DNA of 16,510 bases, taken from NCBI GenBank assembly GCA_004173255.1, contig SDZZ01000146.1:1-16510 (forward strand), in the 5' to 3' direction. Numbering within the stretch: position 1 is the first letter of the stretch; every line of letters begins with the position of its first letter. Source of the stretch: Chitinophagaceae bacterium. Its GTDB lineage: Bacteria > Bacteroidota > Bacteroidia > Chitinophagales > Chitinophagaceae. A program made the position numbers and the translations under genes. A model generated the notes under the pieces. That model did not search any database, was not told the origin of the DNA, and saw only the letters and a list, made by a program, of their open reading frames with translations. Positions 2,128 to 12,718 of the stretch are shown one piece after another.

Positions 2128-2209
2128 GCCCAGGTGGCGGAATTGGTAGACGCAGCAGACTCAAAATCTGCCGCCGCAAGGTGTATCGGTTCGATTCCGA
2201 TCCTGGGCA
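2128..2209 (+). tRNA. tRNA-Leu(CAA): tRNA-Leu (anticodon CAA), type II with long variable arm
   Basis: Acceptor stem GCCCAGG/CCTGGGC. Three-bp D-stem with AATTGGTAGA loop. Anticodon stem GCAGA/TCTGC with loop CTCAAAA (anticodon CAA). Long variable arm CGCCGCAAGGTGT. T-arm ATCGG-TTCGATT-CCGAT, discriminator A. CCA is not encoded. The minus-strand ORF 1941..2210 overlaps it and is spurious. Confidence 0.9.
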
Positions 2210-2261
2210 CTGAATGGACAAGTTGAAATCATTTCGGCTTGTCCATTTTTCGTTTCAGCCC

Positions 2262-2942: not shown

Positions 2943-3065
2943 GGTGAAATATCGTTTGCAAATATTTTTATCCTAATGCAAATATTATTTGCAAATATAA
3001 GTGAAGTTCTCTAGATTTGTTCTACAAAATTTAACCATCGATGGATTTTATGTCCACCATACAGG
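2943..3065. promoter_or_regulatory. Divergent promoter region with three TTTGCAAA-core palindromic operator-like sites
   Basis: TTTGCAAA at 2955-2962, half-site ATGCAAATAT at 2976-2985, and a perfect 12-bp palindrome TATTTGCAAATA at 2986-2997. All lie within an AT-rich intergenic region between the XRE regulator start (2942, minus) and the small ORF/pspA operon (3066, plus). Confidence 0.45.
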
Positions 3066-3266
3066 ATGTTTAAACAGCTGCTGCAGAAAAACCGGGATAT
3101 GATCCATGGTGCCTTTGTGATCAATGAAGAAGGCAACAAGGTCCTGTTCCGGTACACGATGCAGCTGGAAAATATCAATTTCAATGAATTTGAAGGCGCC
3201 ATCAATTCATTGGGTTTGCTGCTGAGCGAGTATTACCAACAAATTATTAATTTTTCAAAATTGTAG
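3066..3266 (+). CDS. Small hypothetical protein (66 aa), probably the first gene of the pspA operon
   Basis: The ORF ends at TAG 3264-3266, 4 bp before the pspA ATG. It is on the same strand and sits right after the operator-bearing promoter. I recognise no family. It overlaps an antisense ORF 3011..3205 that is less plausible. Confidence 0.4.
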   Translation: MFKQLLQKNRDMIHGAFVINEEGNKVLFRYTMQLENINFNEFEGAINSLGLLLSEYYQQIINFSKL

Positions 3267-3270
3267 TATT

Positions 3271-3969
3271 ATGAATCTGTTTAAAAGAATCTTCAGGATC
3301 GGACAGGCTGAAATCCATGCTGCTGTTGAAAAAATGGAAGATCCGGTAAAAATGACCGAGCAGGGGCTGCGCGAACTGAGGGAAGACCTGGCACAGGCGA
3401 CCGAAGCCTATGCCCGCGTGAAGGCCCTGGCCATCCGGACCGAAAATGAAAAAGAAGTTTGCCAGAAAGAGTCGCTGAACTACGCCGAAAAAGCTATATT
3501 GATCATGCAAAAAGCACAGCATGGCGAAGTGGAAATCGTGAAAGCCGAACAACTGGCCCGTGAAGCACTCTCACTGCGCCGGCAATACTACACGGACTCC
3601 GAAAATCTTGCCGTGCAGGTAGTTGCTCACCAGCAAAGCTCCCAGGAAATGCTGAATAATATCGGCATCCTAAAAGAGAACCTGGCGAAATGGGAAAAAG
3701 AACTGAAAACACTGAAGGCACGGGTGAAAGTGAGCAAGGCCACGCAGCAGGTAAACAAACAACTGGCCCAGCTGGATACGAACGGCACCATTGCCATGCT
3801 GGAACGGATGAAAGAAAAAGTGGAAGACCAGGAAGCCCTGTCGAAAGCCTATGGTGAAATAGCAAGGGATAAACACACCATGAAGGACGAACTGGACAAG
3901 ATCCTGAAAGATGATACCACGTCGATAGAAAAAGACCTGGCTGCGATAAAGACCAAGCTTGGGATGTAG
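3271..3969 (+). CDS. pspA: PspA/IM30 family protein (phage-shock protein A / Vipp1 / LiaH; bacterial ESCRT-III superfamily)
   Basis: 232 aa. The N-terminus MNLFKRIFRIGQAEIHAAVEKMEDPVKMTEQGLRELREDL matches the PspA signature (F-R-x-x-I-x-A-x-x-x-K-x-EDP-x-K-M...). The rest is long heptad-rich helical sequence of typical PspA length. Confidence 0.85.
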   Translation: MNLFKRIFRIGQAEIHAAVEKMEDPVKMTEQGLRELREDLAQATEAYARVKALAIRTENEKEVCQKESLNYAEKAILIMQKAQHGEVEIVKAEQLAREALSLRRQYYTDSENLAVQVVAHQQSSQEMLNNIGILKENLAKWEKELKTLKARVKVSKATQQVNKQLAQLDTNGTIAMLERMKEKVEDQEALSKAYGEIARDKHTMKDELDKILKDDTTSIEKDLAAIKTKLGM

Positions 3970-4003: not shown

Positions 4004-4192
4004 TCCCTCCGGGATGACAAAAGCTTGTGAGGTCCCTCCGGGATGACAAACCTCGGGATGTCCCTCCGGAATGACAAAAGCTTGGGAGGTCCCTCCGGGA
4101 TGACAAAAGCTTCAAAGGTCCCTCCGGGATGACAAACCTCGGGATGTCCCTCCGGAATGACAAAAGCTTGTGAGGTCCCTCCGGGATGACAA
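4004..4192. repeat. Tandem repeat array 1: 7 units of about 29 bp (consensus GTCCCTCCGG[G/A]ATGACAAA plus about 10 variable nt)
   Basis: Units begin at about 4004, 4033, 4061, 4090, 4119, 4148 and 4175. The conserved 19-nt core is followed by short variable segments (AGCTTGTGAG, CCTCGGGAT, AGCTTGGGAG, AGCTTCAAAG), several used more than once. A higher-order duplication of about 86 bp is visible. The array lies between the pspA stop (3969) and the nfeD start (4254). Confidence 0.9.
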
Positions 4193-4253
4193 GTCCCATC
4201 GGGGTTACAAACGCGCTGTGAAAGACGAACCGAACACGAACCAAACAACCAAC

Positions 4254-4934
4254 ATGCTCTCCACCTTATCCGAACTACTGTTCCATCCGCTATCCAACGC
4301 TATCATGACTATCCTGTCAGGCATTACGGCGTTGTACTGGATTTTCTCCTTCCTGGCAGGCGACTTCCTGGGTGATATGGATTTTGCACCCGAGGTGGAT
4401 GGCGGAATTGGCGTGGATACAGATGCTGATATCGATGCAGGGGAAGCGGGGGGTGAACAATCATTCTTTTCGAAAGCGCTGGAGTTTGTCAACGTGGGCA
4501 AAGTGCCGTTCATGATCGTATACAGCGTGTTTAAATTCATAGCATGGATCATTACACTGCTTAGTTCGGTCGTTTTTAAAATCGCAGACTGGGGCTGGAA
4601 GTCCGCGTTGATCCTGATCCCCGTCTTTATCATCGCATTCCTCATTACCAGGTATGCAACAAAACCATTAGTGAAGATGTACAATGCCATGGGCTATAAC
4701 GGCGAAGAAGCACACGACCTCATTGGCCGGATCGCCAGGATGCGCTCAGCCGTAACCGGCGACAAGATCGGTGCGGCAGAACTGGTGATCAATAACGATG
4801 TGATCCGCATCAATGTCAAAAGCAAATCGGGCGACCCTATCAACTACAACTCCGAAGTCATGATCGCTGACGAATCGACCGATAAACGATACTATTACGT
4901 AGTACCCGAAATAACATTAAACAATATCCTTTAA
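4254..4934 (+). CDS. NfeD/YqiJ-like membrane protein (partner of SPFH/flotillin proteins)
   Basis: About 226 aa from ATG 4254 (the track ORF begins at 4170, inside the repeat). It has hydrophobic TM segments (ILSGITALYWIFSFLAG; FMIVYSVFKFIAWIITLLSSVVF; ALILIPVFIIAFLI) and a C-terminal soluble beta-rich region (VTGDKIGAAELVINNDVIRINVKS...) consistent with an NfeD-type OB-fold. It sits immediately upstream of a flotillin gene, as in yqiJ-yqiK and nfeD-floT pairs. Confidence 0.7.
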   Translation: MLSTLSELLFHPLSNAIMTILSGITALYWIFSFLAGDFLGDMDFAPEVDGGIGVDTDADIDAGEAGGEQSFFSKALEFVNVGKVPFMIVYSVFKFIAWIITLLSSVVFKIADWGWKSALILIPVFIIAFLITRYATKPLVKMYNAMGYNGEEAHDLIGRIARMRSAVTGDKIGAAELVINNDVIRINVKSKSGDPINYNSEVMIADESTDKRYYYVVPEITLNNIL

Positions 4935-5016
4935 TAAAAGGGGGATTAACACTCCCGCCTGCCACCGGAACATTCATTCATCAAAACTGATTACTTAACC
5001 ATCAACCTACCTTACC

Positions 5017-7050
5017 ATGTTTGACGCACTAGGCGGAATTACCCTCGTTATTATCGGAAGCGTCGCCTTCCTTGTTTTCATCATCCTCGCTGCATTCGCC
5101 AGCTTCTATAAAAAAATCCCACAGGGAAAGGCAATTGTACGAACCGGTGTGGGCGGCGGTAAAGTCGCTTTCAACCAGGGTATGTATGTGATCCCCATCC
5201 TGCATAAAATGGAGATCATGGACATCTCCGTCAAAAAACTGCAGATCGACCGGATGGAAGGTGAAGGACTGATCTGTAAAGACAATATCCGGGCAGACAT
5301 TAAGGTAGCCTTCTTCGTCCGCGTCAATAAAAGTGTTGAAGACGTCCTGAACGTAGCACAGATCATCGGCACGGAACGAGCCAGCGACACGGAAACACTC
5401 ACCAACCTGTTCGAAGCCAAATTTTCGGAAGCACTGAAAACCGTGGGTAAAAAATTTGACTTCATTTCCCTGTATGAAGCACGCCGGGAATTCAGGAATG
5501 AAATCCTTGATATCATCGGGACCGACCTGAACGGCTACATCCTGGATGATTGTGCCATCGACTACCTGGAACAAACCGAAATGAAATTCCTGAGTCCGGG
5601 TAATATCCTCGATTCGGAAGGCATCCGCAAAATCACCGAACTGACTGCGGCGCAGAATATCAACGCCAACCTGATCCGCCGGGAAGAAGAAAAAGTGATC
5701 AAGAAACAAAACGTGGAAGCACGCGAAGCGATTCTTGAACTGGACCGCCAGCTGGCCGAAAAAGAAGAGAAACAAAAACGCGAGATCGATAACGTTAAGT
5801 CACGCGAGTACGCCGAAACGCTCAAGGTACGGGAAGAAGAACGACTGAAATCGGAAACCGTCCGCATCAAGACTGATGAGAGCCTTGCTGTACAGGAAGA
5901 AAATAAACTACGCCAGGTGATCATCGCTGCAAAAAACAAGGAACGTACCAATGCAGTGGAAACGGAACGTGTGGAAAAAGACCGCGCACTCGAAGCGAAC
6001 GAGCGGGAAAAGATTGTTACCCTGGCACAGATTGAAAAGGAACGCAATATCGAGGTGGAAAAGAAAAATATCCAGGATGTGATCCGCGAAAGGGTTAAAC
6101 TGGAAAAAGGGGTAGCAGAAGAACAGCAAAACATGAAGGACATCGAATCTTTCCGTACCGTAGAGCGTGCGAAAACAGTGGGCATCACCGACGCAAGCAG
6201 GCTGGCCGAAGAAAAACTGATCTACACCGTGAAAGCCGCAGAAGCGGATAAAAAAGCAGCGGGTGAAAAAGCACAACAGATGATCATCGATGCAGAAGCG
6301 AAAAAAGAAGCTTCTGTAAAAGAAGCAGAAGCACGTAAGATACTGGCTGACGCTATGGCGCGCGAAGAAGCCACACTTGGCTTATCTGAAGCAGAAGTAA
6401 TGATTGCCAAAGCCGAAGCGCTCGAACGCCAGGGTATGGTCGATGCAGGCGTAGTAGAAAAAATGGCTGAAGCAAGACGAAAAGAAGGACTCGCCGAAGC
6501 GGAAATAACCCGCGAAAAAGCATTCGCCGAAGCCGCAGGTATATCCGAAAAAGCGGAAGCCATGAAAAAAATGGATGGCGTGGGTAAGGAACACGAAGAA
6601 TTCAAACTGGTACTGCAAAAGGACAAGGAAATTGCACTGGCACATATCAGTATCAACAAGGATATTGCTGTTGCGCAGGCCGACGTACTGGGCACCGCAC
6701 TTAAGACCGCGAAGATCGACATCGTGGGTGGCGAAACCATGTTCTTTCAGAACATCGTGAACCAGATCTCCAACGCCAAAGGGTTCGACCGATTGATCAA
6801 TGAAAGTGAAAATGCAACCGCAATAAAAAATGCCCTGCTGGGCGATAGCGAAGGTGGCAACCCGCTGGAACGCATCCGGAATTTTGCAGAGAAATACAAG
6901 ATCTCTTCAAATGATTTAAAGAACCTGACCATCTCGGGCCTGATCCTGAAGATGCAGTCCAACAGCTCCGATGACGACCGCAATTCGCTGCTCGACCTGA
7001 GCCGGATCGCCAATAGCCTCGGCCTGGCAAACAAGAAGCTGAACGCCTAA
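5017..7050 (+). CDS. Flotillin-like SPFH/band-7 family protein (YqiK/FloT-like)
   Basis: 677 aa. N-terminal TM helix (ITLVIIGSVAFLVFIILAAFA), an SPFH domain (GKAIVRTGVGGGKVAFNQGMYVIPILHKMEIMDISVKKLQI...), then a very long Glu/Ala/Lys-rich coiled-coil flotillin domain (EAEAKKEASVKEAEARKILADAMAREEA...). The antisense ORFs in this span (5562..6188, 6222..6740) are low-complexity artefacts. Confidence 0.9.
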   Translation: MFDALGGITLVIIGSVAFLVFIILAAFASFYKKIPQGKAIVRTGVGGGKVAFNQGMYVIPILHKMEIMDISVKKLQIDRMEGEGLICKDNIRADIKVAFFVRVNKSVEDVLNVAQIIGTERASDTETLTNLFEAKFSEALKTVGKKFDFISLYEARREFRNEILDIIGTDLNGYILDDCAIDYLEQTEMKFLSPGNILDSEGIRKITELTAAQNINANLIRREEEKVIKKQNVEAREAILELDRQLAEKEEKQKREIDNVKSREYAETLKVREEERLKSETVRIKTDESLAVQEENKLRQVIIAAKNKERTNAVETERVEKDRALEANEREKIVTLAQIEKERNIEVEKKNIQDVIRERVKLEKGVAEEQQNMKDIESFRTVERAKTVGITDASRLAEEKLIYTVKAAEADKKAAGEKAQQMIIDAEAKKEASVKEAEARKILADAMAREEATLGLSEAEVMIAKAEALERQGMVDAGVVEKMAEARRKEGLAEAEITREKAFAEAAGISEKAEAMKKMDGVGKEHEEFKLVLQKDKEIALAHISINKDIAVAQADVLGTALKTAKIDIVGGETMFFQNIVNQISNAKGFDRLINESENATAIKNALLGDSEGGNPLERIRNFAEKYKISSNDLKNLTISGLILKMQSNSSDDDRNSLLDLSRIANSLGLANKKLNA

Positions 7051-7067
7051 TACTCCCGGTAAAACGG

Positions 7068-7101
7068 ACAGTAACCGCACCCGCATGGATGCGGTTACTG
7101 T
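7068..7101 (+). terminator. Stem-loop (12-bp perfect stem, 10-nt loop) between flotillin and the giant ATPase gene
   Basis: ACAGTAACCGCA (7068-7079), loop CCCGCATGGA, TGCGGTTACTGT (7090-7101). It begins 18 nt after the flotillin stop and has no clear U-tract. It could be an intrinsic terminator/attenuator or an RNA-processing or stability element. Confidence 0.4.
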
Positions 7102-7131
7102 TACTTACTGACCATACCCCGCGTGATCATC

Positions 7132-10100
7132 ATGGATGTAAAAGATAAAAACCAGGGATCGGCACTCGATTCCGGCACATACGAAATAATCAGGAACAGG
7201 CTCGATGCACAACGGGTCGACCTGGGTGCACGACTGGCGAAGCTGAATGCCGCGCGGCACGAGATCTTCAGCGCAACCGGTTTTGAACTGATCGCCAACC
7301 AGCGGATCACGACTGAAAACCATGGCGAAGCCCGTGGGCTGATTGCCCTGGGTGACCTCTGCATTTTTGGATACAACGTGCATTTTGGCCTCAGGGAAAA
7401 CATAAAACTGAGCGACGTATTCAGCGTTTACCGGTTTGCCAGCGACCATTTTGAACCGCAGCCGTTAACACTCATCGATGACCCGGGATTTATAACCGAC
7501 TTCACTAACCTGTACAAGTACTACCGGGATTCCCTTTTTGCCAAATTCCACCTGGCCGGAAATTACCTGTTCATGATCTTCCAGACCAGCAAAAACCCGG
7601 AAGACAAAAAGGCCTTCAAATGGATGATCAGGGGCAATACGCTGCAGTATGTCGATGATCGCAGCCTGCAGGAAGTGCAGAAAGCCCCGCAACACGACTT
7701 CCACTGGAACCGTACCAGCCTGGAAGACCGCCGGCTCGGTGTTCACCCGCATATCTCCATCCTCGATAAGGTGTTTATCGAAGCCATTGGTGGCGATATC
7801 ACTTTTAAAATTGAAAACAATACAGCCACCGGCCGCGGTATTTATTCCGAACCTGTGATGAACCGGGATCAGCAGCTCGATGATGCAGAATACTATTACG
7901 CCGATCTCGGTAACCTGATCGCCATAAAAATCCGCCCCTACCAGGAGGAAGCACGGTCGTTTATATTCAACATCCGTACCCGCGAAGTCAAACCAATCCG
8001 GATGCTCCTCGATGCGGGCATCCTGCTGCCCGACAATCAGGGTGTCATTTTCCCGAACGGCTACTACCTGCAGAACGGGGAGTATAAAATATTTGAGTCT
8101 GACCTTTCCAATCTCGAATTCATCAGGTCCATCGCGTCGCCCAACGGGGAAGACCTGCTTTACGTCTTTTACCAGGTGCGGCTCAACACATACGTGCTGA
8201 TGTCGTACAATATCATTTCACACCAGGTGGAAACGCCCATCATCTGCAACGGCTTCACCGTTTTTAACGATGGTAAACTGATCTACTTCCGATCCGAACA
8301 GGAGGCAGTACGCCACCACCAGGTGCAGATCTGGCAAACCCCCTACACAGCAGTGCTGCAGGAAAATGAAGCCATGCAGGATAATGTGCTGTTCAAGATC
8401 GGCAACAAGGATATCGTGAGCGCCATGTCGGAAAGCCACGAAATCATGCAGCTGCTGGGCAAGGAAGATTCATTCGAACGTCTCTACGAAGACATCAATA
8501 AAAAAGCCAATGACCTGGTCGACTCCTACTTCTGGATCAGGGATGAAGCAGCATTCAATCTTGCTGCACCACTCGAACAGATCCGGGATATAGCCGCTAC
8601 TGCCATTGACGAATTTGCCCGGGTACAGGCCCAGCGCCAGCATGCCCGCGACACCATGGCCGCCATGCAGAAAAAAGTGGAACAACTGGTGATCGATGTT
8701 AAAAACAGCGTGGTCACTTCCCTCGACCAGCTGGTAAAAATACTGGCGGGCGTTCGTGATATGCAGGGAGCGGTGATCGACCTGTCCAATGTAAAATATA
8801 TCCAGCCCGAACAGGTGGCTAAACTGAAAGAACTACTCGACCATTATAACGGCAGCCTTTCACAGGATACAATCAACTTCCTGCTGAAGGACCAGGCATT
8901 ACAGCCATACGAACAGAAAGTAACCGACCAGAAAGCCGCAGTGGCGAAAGTGACTAAAGTGGTCGAGGCCCAGGAAATTGAAAAAGCAATTACCGGTATT
9001 GCGGGCGAACTCGAAATGCTGATCGATATCCTCAACAGTTTGAAAATCGACGACAGCACCCAAAGCACCCGCATCATCGAGAAAATCTCCCTGATCTTTT
9101 CTTCACTGAATGAAGTGAAAGCCGACCTGGTGCGCAACATCCGCTCACTCCGCAACAAAGAAGCCACCGGTGAATTTTATGCACAGCTTACACTGCTGGA
9201 ACAGGGCATCGTAAGTTTCCTTGACCTGTCCACTACACCCGATAAGGCTGAGAACTATTTTACCAAGGTGAGCGTGCAGATCGAGGAACTGGAATCGCGC
9301 TTCGCTGACTTCCCCGACTTTGTGTTGAAGATCGCCGATAAACGGGACGAGGTTATCAAGGCATTCAACGTTAAAAAAGAAATGCTGGTGGCGGCCATTA
9401 ACAAACGGACCGCTTCGCTTGAACAGATCGGTCTGCGCGTACTGAAAAACATCAGCAACAAGGCCGCGTCTTTTGACAGCAAGGAAAAGATCTATGCCTT
9501 CTTCTCGGCCGACCTGATGATCGGGAAAGTGCGCAGCCTGGCCGAAGAACTGGCTGCACTCGGCGATGTGGCCAAAGCAGAGAATCTCGAAAACCAGTTG
9601 AAGCTGGCGCAGGAAGAGGCATTGCGCAACCTGAAAGATAAAACGGACCTGTTCGTCGACGGGCAGAATATTATTTCACTGGGTGACCACAAATTCGTGG
9701 TGAATAAACAGGTGCTTGACCTCAGTATCATCCGGAAAGACGAAAAATTATTCTATCACCTTACCGGCACCAGTTTTTATAAGGAGGTCAGCGCGGAAAA
9801 CCTGTATCAATACCGCAACATCTGGGAGCAGGAGATCATTTCGGAAAATGCAGCTGTGTACCGCGGCGAATACCTGGCCTACGAAACTTACCTGGCAAGC
9901 CTTTCAGCCGATACAGGATGGGATGCTGTCACATTTATCAATGAACGGGTAGAACGGGATTATACAGCTGCATATCTCAAAGGCGTGCACAATACCGATG
10001 CGCTGGCCATTTACCAGCAGCTGAAAACAATTTTCGATGCACTGGGTATTCTCCGTTTTGCCCCATCGGTGAGGGCTGCGGCACAATTATTCTGGTTCCG

Positions 10101-11976
10101 GCTCGATGTGGCATCACAGGAAAAACTGCAGCATTTAATTACAGCTGCCGCTTCTATCGAAGATAGTTTCCCGGGCAGCCGCCAGTACTCTTTTGTCATT
10201 GATCGTATCAGCAACCAATACAATACCCTGGCGGTTCCAGCCATCGCTTTAGCCGACGCGTCCGATGTTGCCGGATACCTTTACCGCGAATTTGCCACCG
10301 GCCGCAACTTCACTGCCAGCCAGCAGGCGGTTAAAATCAGGAAGGGGTTCAATGATTTTTTACTGTCAAATAAAAAACTCGAACTCTTCAGGCAGGACTC
10401 GGAAAACGGTTCGTTCAGCCTGGAAGAAAAGTTTTTTGTGATCCAGAACTGGCTGCAGGCATTTTTAGCAAAAGATGGTGGCGACCAGTTGTACATTACC
10501 GAGGCTGTATGCCTGCTGCTGTTCCGCGATCATGCCTACCGTGAACGACCGGCCAACGACCACGCAGTGGTGGGCAATCTTAAAGGCAGCCACGGGGTCA
10601 TTGTTGAACAGCAATACCAGCTCCACTTTCATCGCTTCCTGGAAAAAATGTCCGGCTATACCTCTGCTATTGTGCCCGCATTTACGGCGTTCAATCAACT
10701 GAAGACGGAGCTGGCCGCTGCTTATCGCCAGCAACTGCGGATCAACGAATTTGAGCCGCGTGTGCTGAGTTCGTTTGTACGAAACCGGCTTATCAATGAA
10801 ATATATTTCCCGCTCATCGGTGGCAATCTTGCCAAACAGATCGGCAGTGCGGGCGATGATAAACGCACAGCCCGGATGGGCATGTTGCTGCTGGTATCCC
10901 CTCCCGGCTATGGTAAGACCACCTTGATGGAATATCTGTCCCGTACTATGGGATTACATTTTGTAAAAATCAACGGGCCGACTATCGGTCACAGCATTAC
11001 ATCGATCGACCCCGTGGAAGCCACCACCTCCGGTGCCAGGGAAGAACTGAAAAAGATCAACCTGGCCATGGAGATGGCAGACAACGTGATGTTGTATCTC
11101 GACGATATCCAGCACTGCAGTGCCGAGTTCCTGCAGAAGTTTATTTCGCTGGCCGATGGCCAGCGCAAGATGGATGGCATTTTTGAAGGCAACAGCCGCA
11201 CCTACGATCTTCGCGGCAAAAGATTCTGCATTGTGATGGCCGGTAATCCATACACGGAAAGCGGCGAACAATTCAAAATCCCGGACATGCTGGCCAACCG
11301 GGCGGATGTGTACAACCTCGGCGATGTGATCGGTTCATCAGACCAGTTATTTAACCTGAGCCTGGTTGAAAATGCAGTAGCGGAGAACCGTTACCTGCAA
11401 AGGATTACCAACCGGAGTTTTGATGACCTCTATAAACTGGTTGATTACCTGGAAACCGGTGCAGAAATGATGCCGGTGCTGGAAGGCAATTACGTGGGCC
11501 AGGAAGTGGACGATGCGCTGGCTGTATTGAAAAATGTACTGGAAGTACGCAAAGTGGTGATCCAGGTGAACCAGCATTATATCGCCAGCGCTGCCATGAA
11601 AGATAGTTACCGTACAGAACCCGCATTCAAACTGCAGGGCTCTTATCGCAATATGAATAAGATGGTTGGTAAAATTGTACCAATGATGAACCGGCAGGAA
11701 GTGGATACATTAATGCTGTCCCACTATGAAAGCGAATCACAGACGCTCACCTCCGATGCCGAGGCAAACCTGCTGAAGTTAAAAGAGCTGATGGGTAACC
11801 AGTCGGACCAGGAACGCCAGCGCTGGGAACAGATCAAAACCATTTTTCGAAAGAATAATAAGTTCGGCGGACTGGATAGCAGCGACACATCAGGTCAGAT
11901 GCTGATGCAGCTCAGTAGTTTTAATGAACACCTGGAAGCAATTGCGAGTGCAATGCAGAATGGCAAAACAAAATAA
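7132..11976 (+). CDS. Giant (about 1615 aa) uncharacterised protein with a C-terminal MoxR/AAA_5 (dynein-related) type ATPase domain
   Basis: The ORF is 4.85 kb and uninterrupted. The track starts it at GTG 7123, but ATG 7132 is more likely. Walker A is LLLVSPPGYGKTTL (G-Y-G-K-T at nt 10906-10920). Walker B is VMLYLDDIQ (nt about 11091-11111). IVMAGNPYTESGEQFKIPDMLANRADVYNL resembles the MoxR/AAA_5 ATxNP...LPxAxLDRF sensor/arginine region. Before the ATPase there is a roughly 430-aa beta-rich N-terminal region and roughly 800 aa of mostly helical/coiled-coil sequence. After it there is a roughly 200-aa C-terminal tail. Confidence 0.9.
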   Translation: MDVKDKNQGSALDSGTYEIIRNRLDAQRVDLGARLAKLNAARHEIFSATGFELIANQRITTENHGEARGLIALGDLCIFGYNVHFGLRENIKLSDVFSVYRFASDHFEPQPLTLIDDPGFITDFTNLYKYYRDSLFAKFHLAGNYLFMIFQTSKNPEDKKAFKWMIRGNTLQYVDDRSLQEVQKAPQHDFHWNRTSLEDRRLGVHPHISILDKVFIEAIGGDITFKIENNTATGRGIYSEPVMNRDQQLDDAEYYYADLGNLIAIKIRPYQEEARSFIFNIRTREVKPIRMLLDAGILLPDNQGVIFPNGYYLQNGEYKIFESDLSNLEFIRSIASPNGEDLLYVFYQVRLNTYVLMSYNIISHQVETPIICNGFTVFNDGKLIYFRSEQEAVRHHQVQIWQTPYTAVLQENEAMQDNVLFKIGNKDIVSAMSESHEIMQLLGKEDSFERLYEDINKKANDLVDSYFWIRDEAAFNLAAPLEQIRDIAATAIDEFARVQAQRQHARDTMAAMQKKVEQLVIDVKNSVVTSLDQLVKILAGVRDMQGAVIDLSNVKYIQPEQVAKLKELLDHYNGSLSQDTINFLLKDQALQPYEQKVTDQKAAVAKVTKVVEAQEIEKAITGIAGELEMLIDILNSLKIDDSTQSTRIIEKISLIFSSLNEVKADLVRNIRSLRNKEATGEFYAQLTLLEQGIVSFLDLSTTPDKAENYFTKVSVQIEELESRFADFPDFVLKIADKRDEVIKAFNVKKEMLVAAINKRTASLEQIGLRVLKNISNKAASFDSKEKIYAFFSADLMIGKVRSLAEELAALGDVAKAENLENQLKLAQEEALRNLKDKTDLFVDGQNIISLGDHKFVVNKQVLDLSIIRKDEKLFYHLTGTSFYKEVSAENLYQYRNIWEQEIISENAAVYRGEYLAYETYLASLSADTGWDAVTFINERVERDYTAAYLKGVHNTDALAIYQQLKTIFDALGILRFAPSVRAAAQLFWFRLDVASQEKLQHLITAAASIEDSFPGSRQYSFVIDRISNQYNTLAVPAIALADASDVAGYLYREFATGRNFTASQQAVKIRKGFNDFLLSNKKLELFRQDSENGSFSLEEKFFVIQNWLQAFLAKDGGDQLYITEAVCLLLFRDHAYRERPANDHAVVGNLKGSHGVIVEQQYQLHFHRFLEKMSGYTSAIVPAFTAFNQLKTELAAAYRQQLRINEFEPRVLSSFVRNRLINEIYFPLIGGNLAKQIGSAGDDKRTARMGMLLLVSPPGYGKTTLMEYLSRTMGLHFVKINGPTIGHSITSIDPVEATTSGAREELKKINLAMEMADNVMLYLDDIQHCSAEFLQKFISLADGQRKMDGIFEGNSRTYDLRGKRFCIVMAGNPYTESGEQFKIPDMLANRADVYNLGDVIGSSDQLFNLSLVENAVAENRYLQRITNRSFDDLYKLVDYLETGAEMMPVLEGNYVGQEVDDALAVLKNVLEVRKVVIQVNQHYIASAAMKDSYRTEPAFKLQGSYRNMNKMVGKIVPMMNRQEVDTLMLSHYESESQTLTSDAEANLLKLKELMGNQSDQERQRWEQIKTIFRKNNKFGGLDSSDTSGQMLMQLSSFNEHLEAIASAMQNGKTK

Positions 11977-11978
11977 TG

Positions 11979-12225
11979 GTCATCCTGTAAGGATCAGGTT
12001 GTCATCCTGCAAGGATCAGGTGGCGATTGTCATCCTTTAGGGATCAGGTTGTCATCCTGTAAGGATCAGGTTGTCATCCTGAAAGGATCAGGTTGTCATC
12101 CTGTAAGGATCAGGATGCATCCTGTAAGGATCAGGTTGTCATCCTGTAAGGATAAGATTGTCATCCTGCAGGGATCACGTTGTCATCCTGTAAGGATTAG
12201 GTTGTCATCCTGTAAGGATCACTCG
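11979..12225. repeat. Tandem repeat array 2: 11 units of 22 bp (consensus GTCATCCTGTAAGGATCAGGTT)
   Basis: The array is head-to-tail with no spacers. It begins 3 nt after the giant gene's TAA stop. One unit carries a 6-nt insertion (GCGATT), one is 21 nt long, and scattered point variants occur. Each unit contains the small hairpin ATCCT-GTA-AGGAT. The ORF 12049..12273 (+) is a translation artefact of the array. Confidence 0.9.
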
Positions 12226-12232
12226 GCGGTTG

Positions 12233-12718
12233 TCAGATCTTCAGGTTCTTTATGGGCGGACCAACACGCGTAAACCCATGTTCCTGCCGTAATGCTTCCC
12301 GCTGTTCTTCGGTCATATCTTTCAGCACGCCTTGCGCACTTAATTTAAAAAATGCTTCCATCTTGCCTGCGGGCTGGAATCCCATCATCAACTTGGCTTC
12401 GCCTTCACCCACTTTGCAGAATGCATGGGGTACACCGCGCGGGCCAAATACAAAGTCGCCCGGTTTAGCAGTAAAATCCTTGCCGCCTACGCGGAATAAA
12501 AATTCACCGGTCATTACATACCACCATTCGTCCTGCGTGGCATGCACATGATAGGATTCCATCAGCGAAAGCGGCTGGTCCAACCGGTCCTTCCCCGCAT
12601 CCACCTTATACCCTTTTGCATCGCGGTTGAACCGGAACCCGTTCGCCAGGGTTCGCATCGGGACTAACGCAACTGAACCTGCGGCCAGCAGGAGTTTCAT
12701 AAAGCTGTTTCTTTTCAT
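12233..12718 (-). CDS. Secreted cupin-domain protein
   Basis: 161 aa. Signal-peptide-like N-terminus MKRNSFMKLLLAAGSVALVP. Cupin motif 1 is HVHATQDEWWYVMTGE and motif 2 is PGDFVFGPRGVPHAF. Confidence 0.8.
   Translation of the reverse strand: MKRNSFMKLLLAAGSVALVPMRTLANGFRFNRDAKGYKVDAGKDRLDQPLSLMESYHVHATQDEWWYVMTGEFLFRVGGKDFTAKPGDFVFGPRGVPHAFCKVGEGEAKLMMGFQPAGKMEAFFKLSAQGVLKDMTEEQREALRQEHGFTRVGPPIKNLKI

What the first reader, a model, noticed from the sequence alone, without database searches (positions are those of the whole stretch)
4004..12225. Two different tandem-repeat arrays bracket the nfeD-flotillin-ATPase genes and share an inverted core GGATGACAA / TTGTCATCC
Array 1 (4004..4192) units read ...CCGGGATGACAAA... 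Array 2 (11979..12225) units read ...GGTTGTCATCCTG... The 9-10-nt core GGATGACAA is reverse-complemented between them (GGATGACAAACCT versus its complement AGGTTGTCATCC, a 12-13-nt match for some units). Two independent arrays sharing a core in inverted orientation on either side of a 7.8-kb three-gene block is unlikely by chance. It suggests (a) multimeric binding sites for one DNA-binding protein that loops or insulates the segment, (b) recombination or inversion sites for a recombinase encoded elsewhere, or (c) remnants of terminal inverted repeats of a non-autonomous mobile cassette. No recombinase or transposase is present in the window.
Basis: seen in the sequence. Interest (0 to 1): 0.7.

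Follow-up and report, generated by a model that had tools for sequence, protein, structure and literature searches.

The report
Two arrays of REP-like hairpin repeats
The two repeat arrays are real and related, but their shared core is the signature of a hairpin-repeat family found across bacteria (TGTC/CGTC-tagged REPs, the recognition motifs of Ssn single-strand DNA nucleases) that expanded recently in two gene spacers, so they are not the ends of a mobile or invertible three-gene cassette.

Summary
Both arrays exist as described. A1 is at 4004-4192, with 28/29-nt units. A2 is at 11978-12221, with 22-nt units. GGATGACAA occurs 5 times on the + strand in A1, 9 times on the - strand in A2, and nowhere else in the window.

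The units align gap-free over 19 nt (RTCCYTMCRGGATGACAAM). Each is a TGTC tag followed by a 4-5-bp hairpin with a G-N-A triloop, and the stems differ by a compensatory change.

Five orthologous Chitinophagaceae loci keep the same HTH / YbjN-like / pspA / nfeD-like / flotillin / DUF3686-ATPase order without either array or the core. The arrays are therefore late, lineage-specific additions to intergenic spacers.

A genome-collection scan found the same anatomy in at least 120 loci from almost every phylum: GATCC-stem-loop-stem-GGATGACA, with tandem reiteration on the tag side. Eight stand-alone GIY-YIG nuclease genes were flanked by such hairpins.

This matches two published descriptions: the CGTC/TGTC-tagged REP superfamily (Di Nocera 2013) and the Ssn-related motifs of GIY-YIG single-strand DNA nucleases (Chenal 2025).

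The window units are a miniature, tandem variant that fails the published motif regex. No nuclease gene lies on this 16.5-kb contig. Looping, inversion and cassette-end readings are not supported.

The parts
4004..4192 (-). Array 1. Seven head-to-tail units of 28/29 nt. On the minus strand each reads TGTC-AT(C/T)CC-GGA-GGGA(C/T) plus an 11-12-nt linker. A 3-unit block of 86 nt is duplicated at 96% identity. The leftmost unit (4004-4023) has the canonical full 5-bp stem ATCCC/GGGAT.
4193..4211 (-). Degenerate eighth unit of array 1. On the + strand it reads GTCCCATCGGGGTTACAAA, so the tag is TGTA instead of TGTC.
11978..12221 (+). Array 2. Eleven head-to-tail units of 22 nt. On the plus strand each reads TGTC-ATCCT-GNA-AGGAT-C-AGGT. 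Nine units carry TGTC, one carries GGTC and one is a deletion variant with ATGC. Ten of 11 loops are G-N-A, and two stems carry a G-T wobble on this strand. The array starts 2 nt after the ATPase stop codon and ends 11 nt before the stop codon of the convergent cupin gene.
3271..3969 (+). Context: pspA (PspA/IM30). It lies upstream of array 1 and belongs to the same conserved gene string, yet sits outside the 'bracket'.
4254..4934 (+). Context: nfeD/YqiJ-like membrane protein. The mechanical ORF (4170-4934, GTG start) runs into array 1. The in-frame ATG at 4254 matches where the conserved coding sequence of relatives begins.
5017..7050 (+). Context: flotillin/YqiK-like protein. It is 100% identical to NCBI RYY60476.1 from a Chitinophagaceae MAG whose contig is 16,510 bp, the same length as the window.
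7123..11976 (+). Context: DUF3686 + DUF7902 + AAA+ ATPase of 1,617 aa.
12233..12718 (-). Context: convergent cupin gene. It is syntenic with the closest relative L001, where only about 27 nt separate it from the ATPase gene.

Best explanation
Both arrays are tandemly amplified miniature members of one pan-bacterial family of tagged hairpin repeats. This family is the CGTC/TGTC-tagged REP superfamily, whose characterised members (Neisseria NTS/dRS3 and 'Ssn-related motifs') are the single-strand DNA recognition sites of small GIY-YIG nucleases called Ssn.

The shared GGATGACAA / TTGTCATCC is the family signature: the unpaired (T)GTC tag plus the A-T-C-C foot of the stem.

Shown here:
- The two unit types are homologous hairpins.
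- They are absent from orthologous loci.
- The same anatomy occurs in many phyla and flanks GIY-YIG genes.

Inferred:
- Each array arose when one hairpin landed or formed in a spacer of this lineage.
- It was then multiplied head-to-tail by replication slippage or unequal exchange. The 86-nt, 3-unit duplication in array 1 is a trace of this.
- The opposite orientation of the two arrays is a coin-flip outcome of two independent events.
- The structure that matters is a single-stranded DNA mini-hairpin on the TGTC strand. That is the minus strand for array 1 and the plus strand for array 2.
- If the genome encodes a cognate Ssn, that enzyme would bind these hairpins and nick a few nucleotides 5' of the tag.

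Any effect on the pspA / nfeD / flotillin / ATPase transcript, such as hairpins just after two stop codons, would be a side effect.
For: Homology of the two unit types:
- Gap-free 19-nt alignment with a compensatory stem change.
- 17 of 18 loops are G-N-A on the TGTC strand.

Lineage-specific origin:
- Five related loci (L001, L002, L003, L142, L143; flotillin 83-90% identical) have the same gene order, no arrays and no core.
- Flanks align across both junctions.

Family:
My own estimate is about 18 chance hits in random sequence.
- Nearly all hits read GATCC-stem-loop-stem-GGATGACA plus tandem repeats.
- In 113 unique hairpins, the TGTC strand folds more stably than its complement in 86 and less stably in 18 (p = 1.5e-13).

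Link to the nuclease:
- Four of the 120 loci carry 92-105-aa GIY-YIG genes (Pfam E 1e-16 to 1e-18) with a TGTC hairpin 15-60 nt upstream, plus a clear inverted copy at the stop in two of the four and a degenerate one in a third.
- Four further GIY-YIG families, fetched independently of any DNA motif, are flanked the same way.

Literature:
- Di Nocera et al. 2013 (PMC3733652) describe the CGTC tag, often TGTC, with stems starting A-T, in Bacteroidetes, Wolbachia, Rickettsia and Neisseria dRS3.
- Chenal et al. 2025 (PMC11893778) show that Ssn binds NTS CGTCATTCCC...GGGAATC only as ssDNA and only on the sense strand. It cuts 5' of the motif. The GTC is needed for cleavage, the C after the palindrome for binding, and the loop is dispensable.
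- The window units keep GTC in 16 of 18 units. The C right after the 5-nt 3' arm is kept in 9 of 11 A2 units and 4 of 7 A1 units.
Against: - The window units fail the published SRM search pattern. They have 4-5-bp stems and 3-nt loops, against 8-9-bp stems and 4-5-nt loops.
- Only 20 of 159 TGTCATCC hairpins from the scan fit that pattern, so most of what I call the family is wider than what was tested biochemically.
- Published Ssn activity depends on the palindrome sequence as well as its shape.
- No GIY-YIG gene lies on this contig, and the rest of the genome could not be reached.
- Compact double units are rare elsewhere. Only 6 JGI metagenome contigs carry them, and no predicted protein resembles a translation of array 1.
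- Head-to-tail dimers were called negligible for CGTC repeats.
- Six of seven array-1 units have an A-C mismatch at the first stem position on the TGTC strand, which would be a G-T wobble on the other strand.
Confidence: 0.7

Rival explanations
1. The arrays act mainly in RNA. As runs of hairpins directly after the pspA and ATPase stop codons, they would protect upstream mRNA from 3' exonucleases or attenuate and terminate transcription. This would set different expression levels for pspA and the downstream genes, as REP/BIME elements do in E. coli operons (my own knowledge of that literature).
For: - The arrays lie 34 nt after the pspA stop and 2 nt after the ATPase stop, and array 2 sits between convergent genes.
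- Array 2 folds far better than shuffles on both strands, with z -4.5 and -6.5 using RNA parameters.
- Relatives L003 and L142 carry other, unrelated tandem repeats in the same operon spacers. These spacers therefore tolerate or favour such inserts.
Against: - The more stable TGTC strand is sense for array 2 but antisense for array 1.
- No terminator-like site (G+C-rich hairpin followed by a T run) falls in either array.
- Array 1 is barely more structured than shuffles (z -2.1 and -0.4).
- No Rfam family matches.
- The closest relatives manage without any such element.
- Characterised Ssn does not touch RNA.
Confidence: 0.15
2. The arrays are paired duplex-DNA sites for a regulator or recombinase that loops, insulates or inverts the nfeD-flotillin-ATPase segment. 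These are the first reader's options (a) and (b).
For: The arrays hold multiple copies of one core in inverted orientation 7.8 kb apart. An XRE-type HTH regulator gene lies next to the operon.
Against: - The core is absent from the operon's promoter region and from all five orthologous loci.
- All relatives are collinear.
- The window holds no recombinase.
- Inversion would cut three genes out of a conserved co-directional string.
- The core is fully explained as a family signature seen in unrelated contexts in many phyla.
Confidence: 0.05
3. The arrays are remnants of terminal inverted repeats of a non-autonomous mobile cassette carrying the three genes.
For: The repeats are in inverted orientation on both sides of a gene block. 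The repeat family does flank small GIY-YIG genes in an IS-like way.
Against: - Relatives without arrays still have the three genes at the same place, between pspA and (in L001) the same cupin gene. There is therefore no empty site.
- pspA, YbjN-like and HTH genes outside the bracket belong to the same conserved string.
- Around GIY-YIG genes the tags face outward, whereas here they face inward.
- No target-site duplication is visible at the junctions.
Confidence: 0.03

Closest known systems
Ssn-related motifs (SRM), including the Neisseria Transformation Sequence NTS/dRS3. These are the recognition sites of Ssn GIY-YIG single-strand DNA nucleases (Chenal et al. 2025, Nat Commun 16:2388, PMC11893778).
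   Same: - An unpaired (C/T)GTC immediately 5' of a palindrome that starts A-T.
- A C right after the palindrome in most units.
- A directional motif.
- Location in intergenic DNA next to genes for membrane-associated proteins.
- In loci fetched here, family members flank ~95-aa GIY-YIG genes as motif-gene-motif.
   Different: - Stems are 4-5 bp with a 3-nt loop, against about 8-9 bp and 4-5 nt, so the published degenerate pattern does not match.
- Units sit in pure head-to-tail arrays of 7-8 and 11 copies.
- No ssn gene lies on the contig.
- Binding and cleavage are untested.
- The host is a Chitinophagaceae bacterium whose competence is unknown.
CGTC-tagged REP superfamily (Di Nocera, De Gregorio and Rocco 2013, BMC Genomics 14:522, PMC3733652). 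It includes Rickettsia RPE-4/RPE-6 and the Wolbachia clusters.
   Same: - A terminal tetranucleotide tag, with TGTC an accepted variant.
- A-T and T-A as the first stem pairs.
- Presence in Bacteroidetes.
- Extragenic location between co-directional or convergent genes.
   Different: - Described stems are 8-9 bp, loops 4-5 nt and tails CCA.
- Described elements are mostly head-to-head dimers, with head-to-tail dimers negligible and clusters rare.
- Here the hairpins are mini-hairpins with CAG/CCT tails, in head-to-tail arrays.
GTAG-tagged REP / REPIN / BIME elements with RAYT (TnpA-REP) tyrosine transposases.
   Same: A short tagged extragenic palindrome. The structure sits on one strand. The associated nuclease gene is flanked by inverted copies. 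Elements cluster in arrays.
   Different: The tag is TGTC, not GTAG. The associated enzyme family is GIY-YIG, not HUH/Y1. BIME arrays alternate in orientation, whereas these arrays are strictly direct.

Membership tests
Ssn-related motif (SRM; Chenal 2025) | Matches the degenerate search pattern HGTCWYN(0-2)YYVSBRHN(0-5)WNVSBRGN(0-2)RNCYNB. | tested here: not met
   The pattern gives no match anywhere in the window on either strand. All nine representative unit variants fail it, while the NTS control matches. The stems are too short.
Ssn-related motif (SRM; Chenal 2025) | GTC in the three positions 5' of the palindrome (needed for cleavage). | tested here: met
   7 of 7 array-1 units and 9 of 11 array-2 units read TGTC. 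One further unit reads GGTC.
Ssn-related motif (SRM; Chenal 2025) | A cytosine immediately 3' of the palindrome (most critical base for binding). | tested here: inconclusive
   C follows AGGAT/GGGAT in 9 of 11 array-2 units. In array 1 the answer depends on where the stem is taken to end. The units read GGGA-C-C, so C follows the 5-nt arm in 4 of 7 units.
Ssn-related motif (SRM; Chenal 2025) | A cognate ssn gene (cd10448 GIY-YIG, about 94 aa) in the genome, typically flanked by the motif. | not testable with these tools
   The window has no GIY-YIG gene. The window is the whole 16.5-kb contig.
Ssn-related motif (SRM; Chenal 2025) | Bound and cut as single-stranded DNA, on the sense strand only. 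| not testable with these tools
   This needs biochemistry. Indirect support comes from G-N-A triloops in 17 of 18 units and the greater stability of the TGTC strand across the family.
CGTC-tagged REP superfamily (Di Nocera 2013) | An unpaired terminal CGTC (or TGTC/CCTC) tag next to a stem whose first two pairs are A-T and T-A. | tested here: met
   All array-2 units and the first array-1 unit read TGTC-AT...AT. The other array-1 units have A-C at the first pair.
CGTC-tagged REP superfamily (Di Nocera 2013) | Stem of 8-9 bp, loop of 4-5 nt, 3-nt tail close to CCA. | tested here: not met
   Stems are 4-5 bp, loops are 3 nt, and tails are CAG (array 2) or CCT/CAT (array 1).
CGTC-tagged REP superfamily (Di Nocera 2013) | Many dispersed copies per genome, mostly as head-to-head dimers. 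| not testable with these tools
   The genome is not available. Within the window there are only the two head-to-tail arrays. Five relatives' loci of 18-22 kb hold none.
GTAG REP / REPIN with RAYT | A GTAG tag and an associated Y1 (IS200-like) transposase. | tested here: not met
   The tag is TGTC. The window has no Y1_Tnp domain.
Terminal inverted repeats of a mobile cassette / MITE | Related genomes show an empty site lacking the cargo; target-site duplication is present; the ends face outward. | tested here: not met
   Relatives lack the arrays but keep the cargo in place. No duplication is seen at the junctions. The tags face inward.
CRISPR array | Repeats separated by unique spacers of similar length. 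| tested here: not met
   Units abut directly with no spacers.

The most novel reading that the evidence does not exclude
The tandem reiteration itself may be a product of Ssn action. Across phyla, the repeats extend from one complete hairpin toward the tag side, which is exactly where Ssn nicks. Cleavage followed by slipped re-priming could therefore spin out arrays.

In this window the two arrays, with tags facing inward, would make whichever strand of the segment becomes single-stranded cleavable right at one border of the nfeD-flotillin-ATPase block. That would amount to a strand-symmetric 'fence' limiting recombinational replacement or transfer of the block. It would be a Bacteroidota counterpart of the NTS-gene-NTS restriction seen in Neisseria.
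Probability: 0.1. Interest if true: 0.6.

Novelty: new variant of a known kind. Interest (0 to 1): 0.3.

Why it matters
For this locus, the practical result is that the arrays should not be read as cassette ends or inversion sites.

More widely, the Ssn nuclease family and its motifs were described only in 2025, mostly from Proteobacteria. The data here suggest three things:
- The motif family is broader than the published search pattern. Most TGTCATCC hairpins, including ones next to GIY-YIG genes, escape it.
- The family reaches Chitinophagaceae in a miniature 5-bp-stem, G-N-A-triloop form.
- The family characteristically grows tandem arrays on the side where the nuclease cuts.

If the miniature units are real substrates, they would define a minimal recognition element for a site-specific single-strand DNA nuclease. 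That is of interest for the ssDNA tools proposed for this enzyme family.

Tried and rejected
- **Rfam.** At gathering score on the whole window and at E <= 10 on each array, it gave nothing but a tRNA and noise.
- **Literature search for the raw sequence strings.** It returned only primer lists.
- **Genome-collection scan.** It was meant to find other copies in the same MAG. Genome-wide abundance in this organism is therefore unknown.
- **Metagenome scan for two adjacent compact units.** It found only 6 contigs, none with long arrays.
- **Protein search with a stop-free translation of array 1,** to catch spurious ORFs over similar arrays. It found nothing.
- **Exact look-up of the window's flotillin** in the contig index. 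It failed.
- **Permissive scan for GTCAT-tagged hairpins** in the window and relatives. It was too noisy to use.
- **Terminator scan.** It placed no site in either array.
- **G-T wobble positions as a strand indicator inside the window.** The events are too few and point both ways.
- **NCBIfam.** It has no specific model for the small GIY-YIG proteins.
- **Supplementary tables of the Ssn paper.** They are not held.
- **Considered and dropped:** CRISPR (no spacers), hammerhead-like ribozyme core (sequence does not fit), iterons or operators of the neighbouring HTH regulator (the core is absent from the promoter region).

Full report
**What is in the window.**

The window is a complete 16,510-bp contig of a Chitinophagaceae metagenome-assembled genome. 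Its flotillin protein is 100% identical to NCBI RYY60476.1, whose only contig has that length.

The genes around the finding are:
- an XRE-type HTH regulator (2262-2942, -)
- a remnant of a YbjN/CesT-like gene (3066-3266, +)
- pspA (3271-3969, +)
- array 1
- a nfeD/YqiJ-like gene (ATG at 4254, ending at 4934)
- a flotillin/YqiK-like gene (5017-7050)
- a 1,617-aa DUF3686 + AAA ATPase (7123-11976)
- array 2
- a convergent cupin gene (12233-12718, -)

**The observation.**

Tandem Repeats Finder reports array 1 at 4004-4192. Its period is 29 with 6.6 copies, and there is a higher-order 86-nt period at 96% identity. Array 2 is at 11979-12221, with period 22 and 10.8 copies.

GGATGACAA occurs five times on the + strand, all in array 1. 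It occurs nine times on the - strand, all in array 2. It occurs nowhere else, against 0.2 expected.

The longest exact shared word is 9 nt.

Written on the same strand, the consensus units align without gaps over 19 nt with 14 identities: GTCCCTCCGGGATGACAAA against ATCCTTACAGGATGACAAC.

Read on the TTGTCATCC strand, every unit has the same anatomy:
- an unpaired TGTC
- a 4-5-bp stem beginning A-T (ATCCC/GGGA(C/T) in array 1, ATCCT/AGGAT in array 2, a compensatory difference)
- a 3-nt loop that is G-N-A in 17 of 18 units
- usually a C after the stem

Random 29-nt and 22-nt units would share a 9-mer in either orientation about 0.4% of the time.

**Comparison with relatives.**

I fetched the orthologous locus from five relatives whose flotillin is 83-90% identical:
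- L001, a sister MAG
- L002
- L003, Flavitalea antarctica
- L142
- L143, Candidatus Pseudobacter hemicellulosilyticus

All five have the string HTH / YbjN-like / pspA / nfeD-like / flotillin / DUF3686-ATPase in the same orientation. L001 also has the same convergent cupin gene.

None has either array, the 9-mer, or any TGTC-tagged hairpin in these spacers. In L001 the pspA-nfeD spacer is about 120 nt and the ATPase-cupin spacer about 27 nt. The coding flanks align across both junctions.

The arrays are therefore recent additions to spacers of a pre-existing conserved gene string. It also removes the cassette idea, because the 'empty sites' still contain the cargo.

**What the core is.**

The hits came from Acidobacteriota, Gemmatimonadota, Firmicutes, Chloroflexota, Nitrospinota, Proteobacteria including Wolbachia and Coxiellaceae, CPR, Bacteroidota and others. 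I estimate about 18 hits for random sequence.

Almost all hits share one anatomy: (A)GATCC-stem-loop-stem-GGATGACA followed by tandem repeats. The 8-mer occurs 634 times in the 966 kb fetched, against 29 expected. That figure is inflated by how the loci were chosen, although many loci hold several separate sites.

Among 113 unique hairpins, the TGTCATCC strand is predicted to fold more stably than its complement in 86 and less stably in 18 (p = 1.5e-13). This comes from tandem G-A mismatches and GAA/GNRA-type loops on that strand. It points to a structure that matters on one single strand.

The window's two unit types correspond to the two common 'feet' of this family, ATCCC...GGGAT and ATCCT...AGGAT, with the interior of the hairpin reduced to a triloop.

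**Associated enzyme.**

I clustered ORFs near the hairpins in the 120 loci. The only recurrent family not explained by shared ancestry of the loci was a 92-105-aa stand-alone GIY-YIG nuclease, found in four loci from different phyla.

In all four, a TGTC-tagged hairpin lies 15-60 nt upstream of the start codon on the coding strand. A clear inverted copy overlaps or follows the stop in two of the four, and a degenerate one follows it in a third, so the tags face outward.

I then took homologues of these proteins without regard to DNA motifs and fetched their loci. All four independent families were flanked the same way: Formosa, candidate division KSB1, and two others. The KSB1 example reads TGTC-ATGCCTGC-GAAA-GCAGGCAT-CCA about 20 nt before the ATG.

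**Literature.**

This turned out to be published.

Di Nocera et al. 2013 (PMC3733652) defined a CGTC-tagged REP superfamily:
- The tag is often TGTC.
- Stems of 8-9 bp begin with A-T pairs, loops are 4-5 nt and tails are CCA.
- The family is found in Proteobacteria, Bacteroidetes and others.
- It includes Neisseria dRS3, Rickettsia RPE-4/6 and the Wolbachia clusters.
- No transposase was known for it.

Chenal et al. 2025 (PMC11893778) reported the following:
- The ~94-aa GIY-YIG proteins of family cd10448 (Ssn) are site-specific single-strand DNA nucleases.
- They bind the NTS (CGTCATTCCCGCGMAVGCGGGAATCYRG) only as ssDNA and only in the sense orientation, and cut a few nucleotides upstream.
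- The three bases before the palindrome are needed for cleavage. The C after the palindrome is most important for binding. The loop is dispensable.
- ssn genes are typically flanked motif-gene-motif.
- In Neisseria the system restricts incoming transforming ssDNA, and the motifs cluster around genes.

**Membership.**

The window units keep the GTC tag, the A-T start of the stem and mostly the 3' C. They fail the published degenerate SRM pattern because the stems are too short.

Only 20 of 159 unique TGTCATCC hairpins from my scan fit that pattern. The rest, including one directly upstream of a GIY-YIG gene (L016), have a G-A/G-A internal loop. The biochemically defined family is thus narrower than the sequence family.

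The window arrays are also unusual within the sequence family. In 154 arrays from the scan, the first core has its complementary arm in 69% of cases. Only 2% of later cores have their own arm, so the usual form is one full hairpin plus tandem half-units on the tag side. The median copy number is 2 and the maximum is 9. Here every unit is a complete mini-hairpin and the copy numbers are 7-8 and 11.

Compact double units are rare in JGI metagenomes, occurring on only six contigs. One of these (L128) has array-1-like units in both orientations next to unrelated genes.

I therefore file the arrays as a new variant of a known kind, not as proven Ssn substrates.

**Mechanism, with shown and inferred steps.**

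Shown:
- common descent of the two unit types
- late origin in this lineage
- membership of a pan-bacterial tagged-hairpin family that flanks GIY-YIG genes

Inferred:
- Two independent seeding events occurred in two spacers.
- Each was followed by head-to-tail amplification through slippage or unequal exchange. The 86-nt three-unit duplication in array 1 fits this.
- The opposite orientation of the arrays is then a 50% outcome with no special meaning.
- The tags face inward, toward the three genes. This is the reverse of the arrangement around ssn genes and argues further against a cassette.

If a cognate Ssn exists, plus-strand ssDNA would be cut at the inner edge of array 2 and minus-strand ssDNA at the inner edge of array 1. 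Whether that has any consequence is unknown.

**Rivals.**

- An RNA-level role (mRNA stabilisation or attenuation after two stop codons) is possible as a side effect. It is not favoured, because the orientation is inconsistent, the arrays contain no terminator-like sites, array 1 has weak structure, and close relatives lack the elements.
- Duplex looping or inversion sites, and cassette ends, are disfavoured by the orthologue comparison and by the generic nature of the core.

**Limits.**

- The rest of the MAG could not be searched, so copy number in this genome and the presence of ssn are unknown.
- Array copy numbers come from a metagenome assembly.

Noticed in passing
window 2943-3270: The YbjN/CesT_Tir_1-like gene between the HTH regulator and pspA carries a 167-nt internal deletion relative to L001 and L002, where the gene is 127-131 aa. 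The deletion is out of frame and leaves only ORF 3066-3266 (66 aa), which matches Pfam profile positions 66-130 of 131. It is either a pseudogene or an assembly error.
   Followed up: partly
L003 9026-9121 and 9927-9969; L142 7023-7113, 7945-7987 and 10158-10464: Flavitalea-like relatives carry other, unrelated A+T-rich tandem repeats in spacers of the same operon. The repeats are 26-nt, 23/46-nt, 7-nt, and a 295-bp array of 38/76-nt units. They lie in the pspA-nfeD, nfeD-flotillin and flotillin-ATPase spacers. These spacers seem prone to, or tolerant of, repeat expansion whatever the sequence.
   Followed up: partly
loci L004-L123 (for example L066 5585-5830, L105 about 2370-2600, L082 15-160): Across phyla the tagged hairpins grow tandem arrays of half-units (tag plus 5' arm plus linker). 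The arrays extend from one complete hairpin toward the tag side, which is where Ssn is reported to cut. Of 154 arrays, 69% have a complete first hairpin, but only 2% of later cores have their own arm. The main text of the 2025 Ssn paper never uses the word 'tandem', and the passages I read of the 2013 paper describe clusters as rare and head-to-tail dimers as negligible for CGTC repeats; the half-unit form is not mentioned in either.
   Followed up: partly
L016 about 7480-7530; loci generally: Most TGTCATCC hairpins (139 of 159 unique) do not fit the published SRM search pattern. Typically they have a G-A/G-A internal loop around a GCGAAGC-type mini-hairpin. One such hairpin lies directly upstream of a GIY-YIG gene. 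The published pattern probably under-counts the family.
   Followed up: partly
L033 892-1024: The Rfam family WsnRNA46 (Wolbachia small RNA 46; 75 bits against a gathering score of 65) overlaps one of the tagged hairpins in a Wolbachia repeat cluster. At least one such cluster may therefore be transcribed.
   Followed up: no
P0122 (Syntrophomonadaceae), P0124, P0170: Identical small GIY-YIG proteins are recorded on 13, 200 and 113 contigs respectively. This fits multi-copy or widely shared genes. The four places shown for P0170 were all the same chromosomal site.
   Followed up: no
window 2128-2210 versus L001 5102-7228: A tRNA-Leu(CAA) gene lies between the cNMP-binding protein gene and the HTH regulator gene in the window. 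At that position the closest relative L001 has two protein genes instead (a 348-aa protein and an EamA transporter). This is a synteny break next to a tRNA gene.
   Followed up: no
window 4170-4253: The mechanical ORF for the nfeD-like gene (GTG at 4170) runs back into array 1. The in-frame ATG at 4254 is the likely true start, judged by alignment with relatives. Automated gene calls here may be too long.
   Followed up: partly
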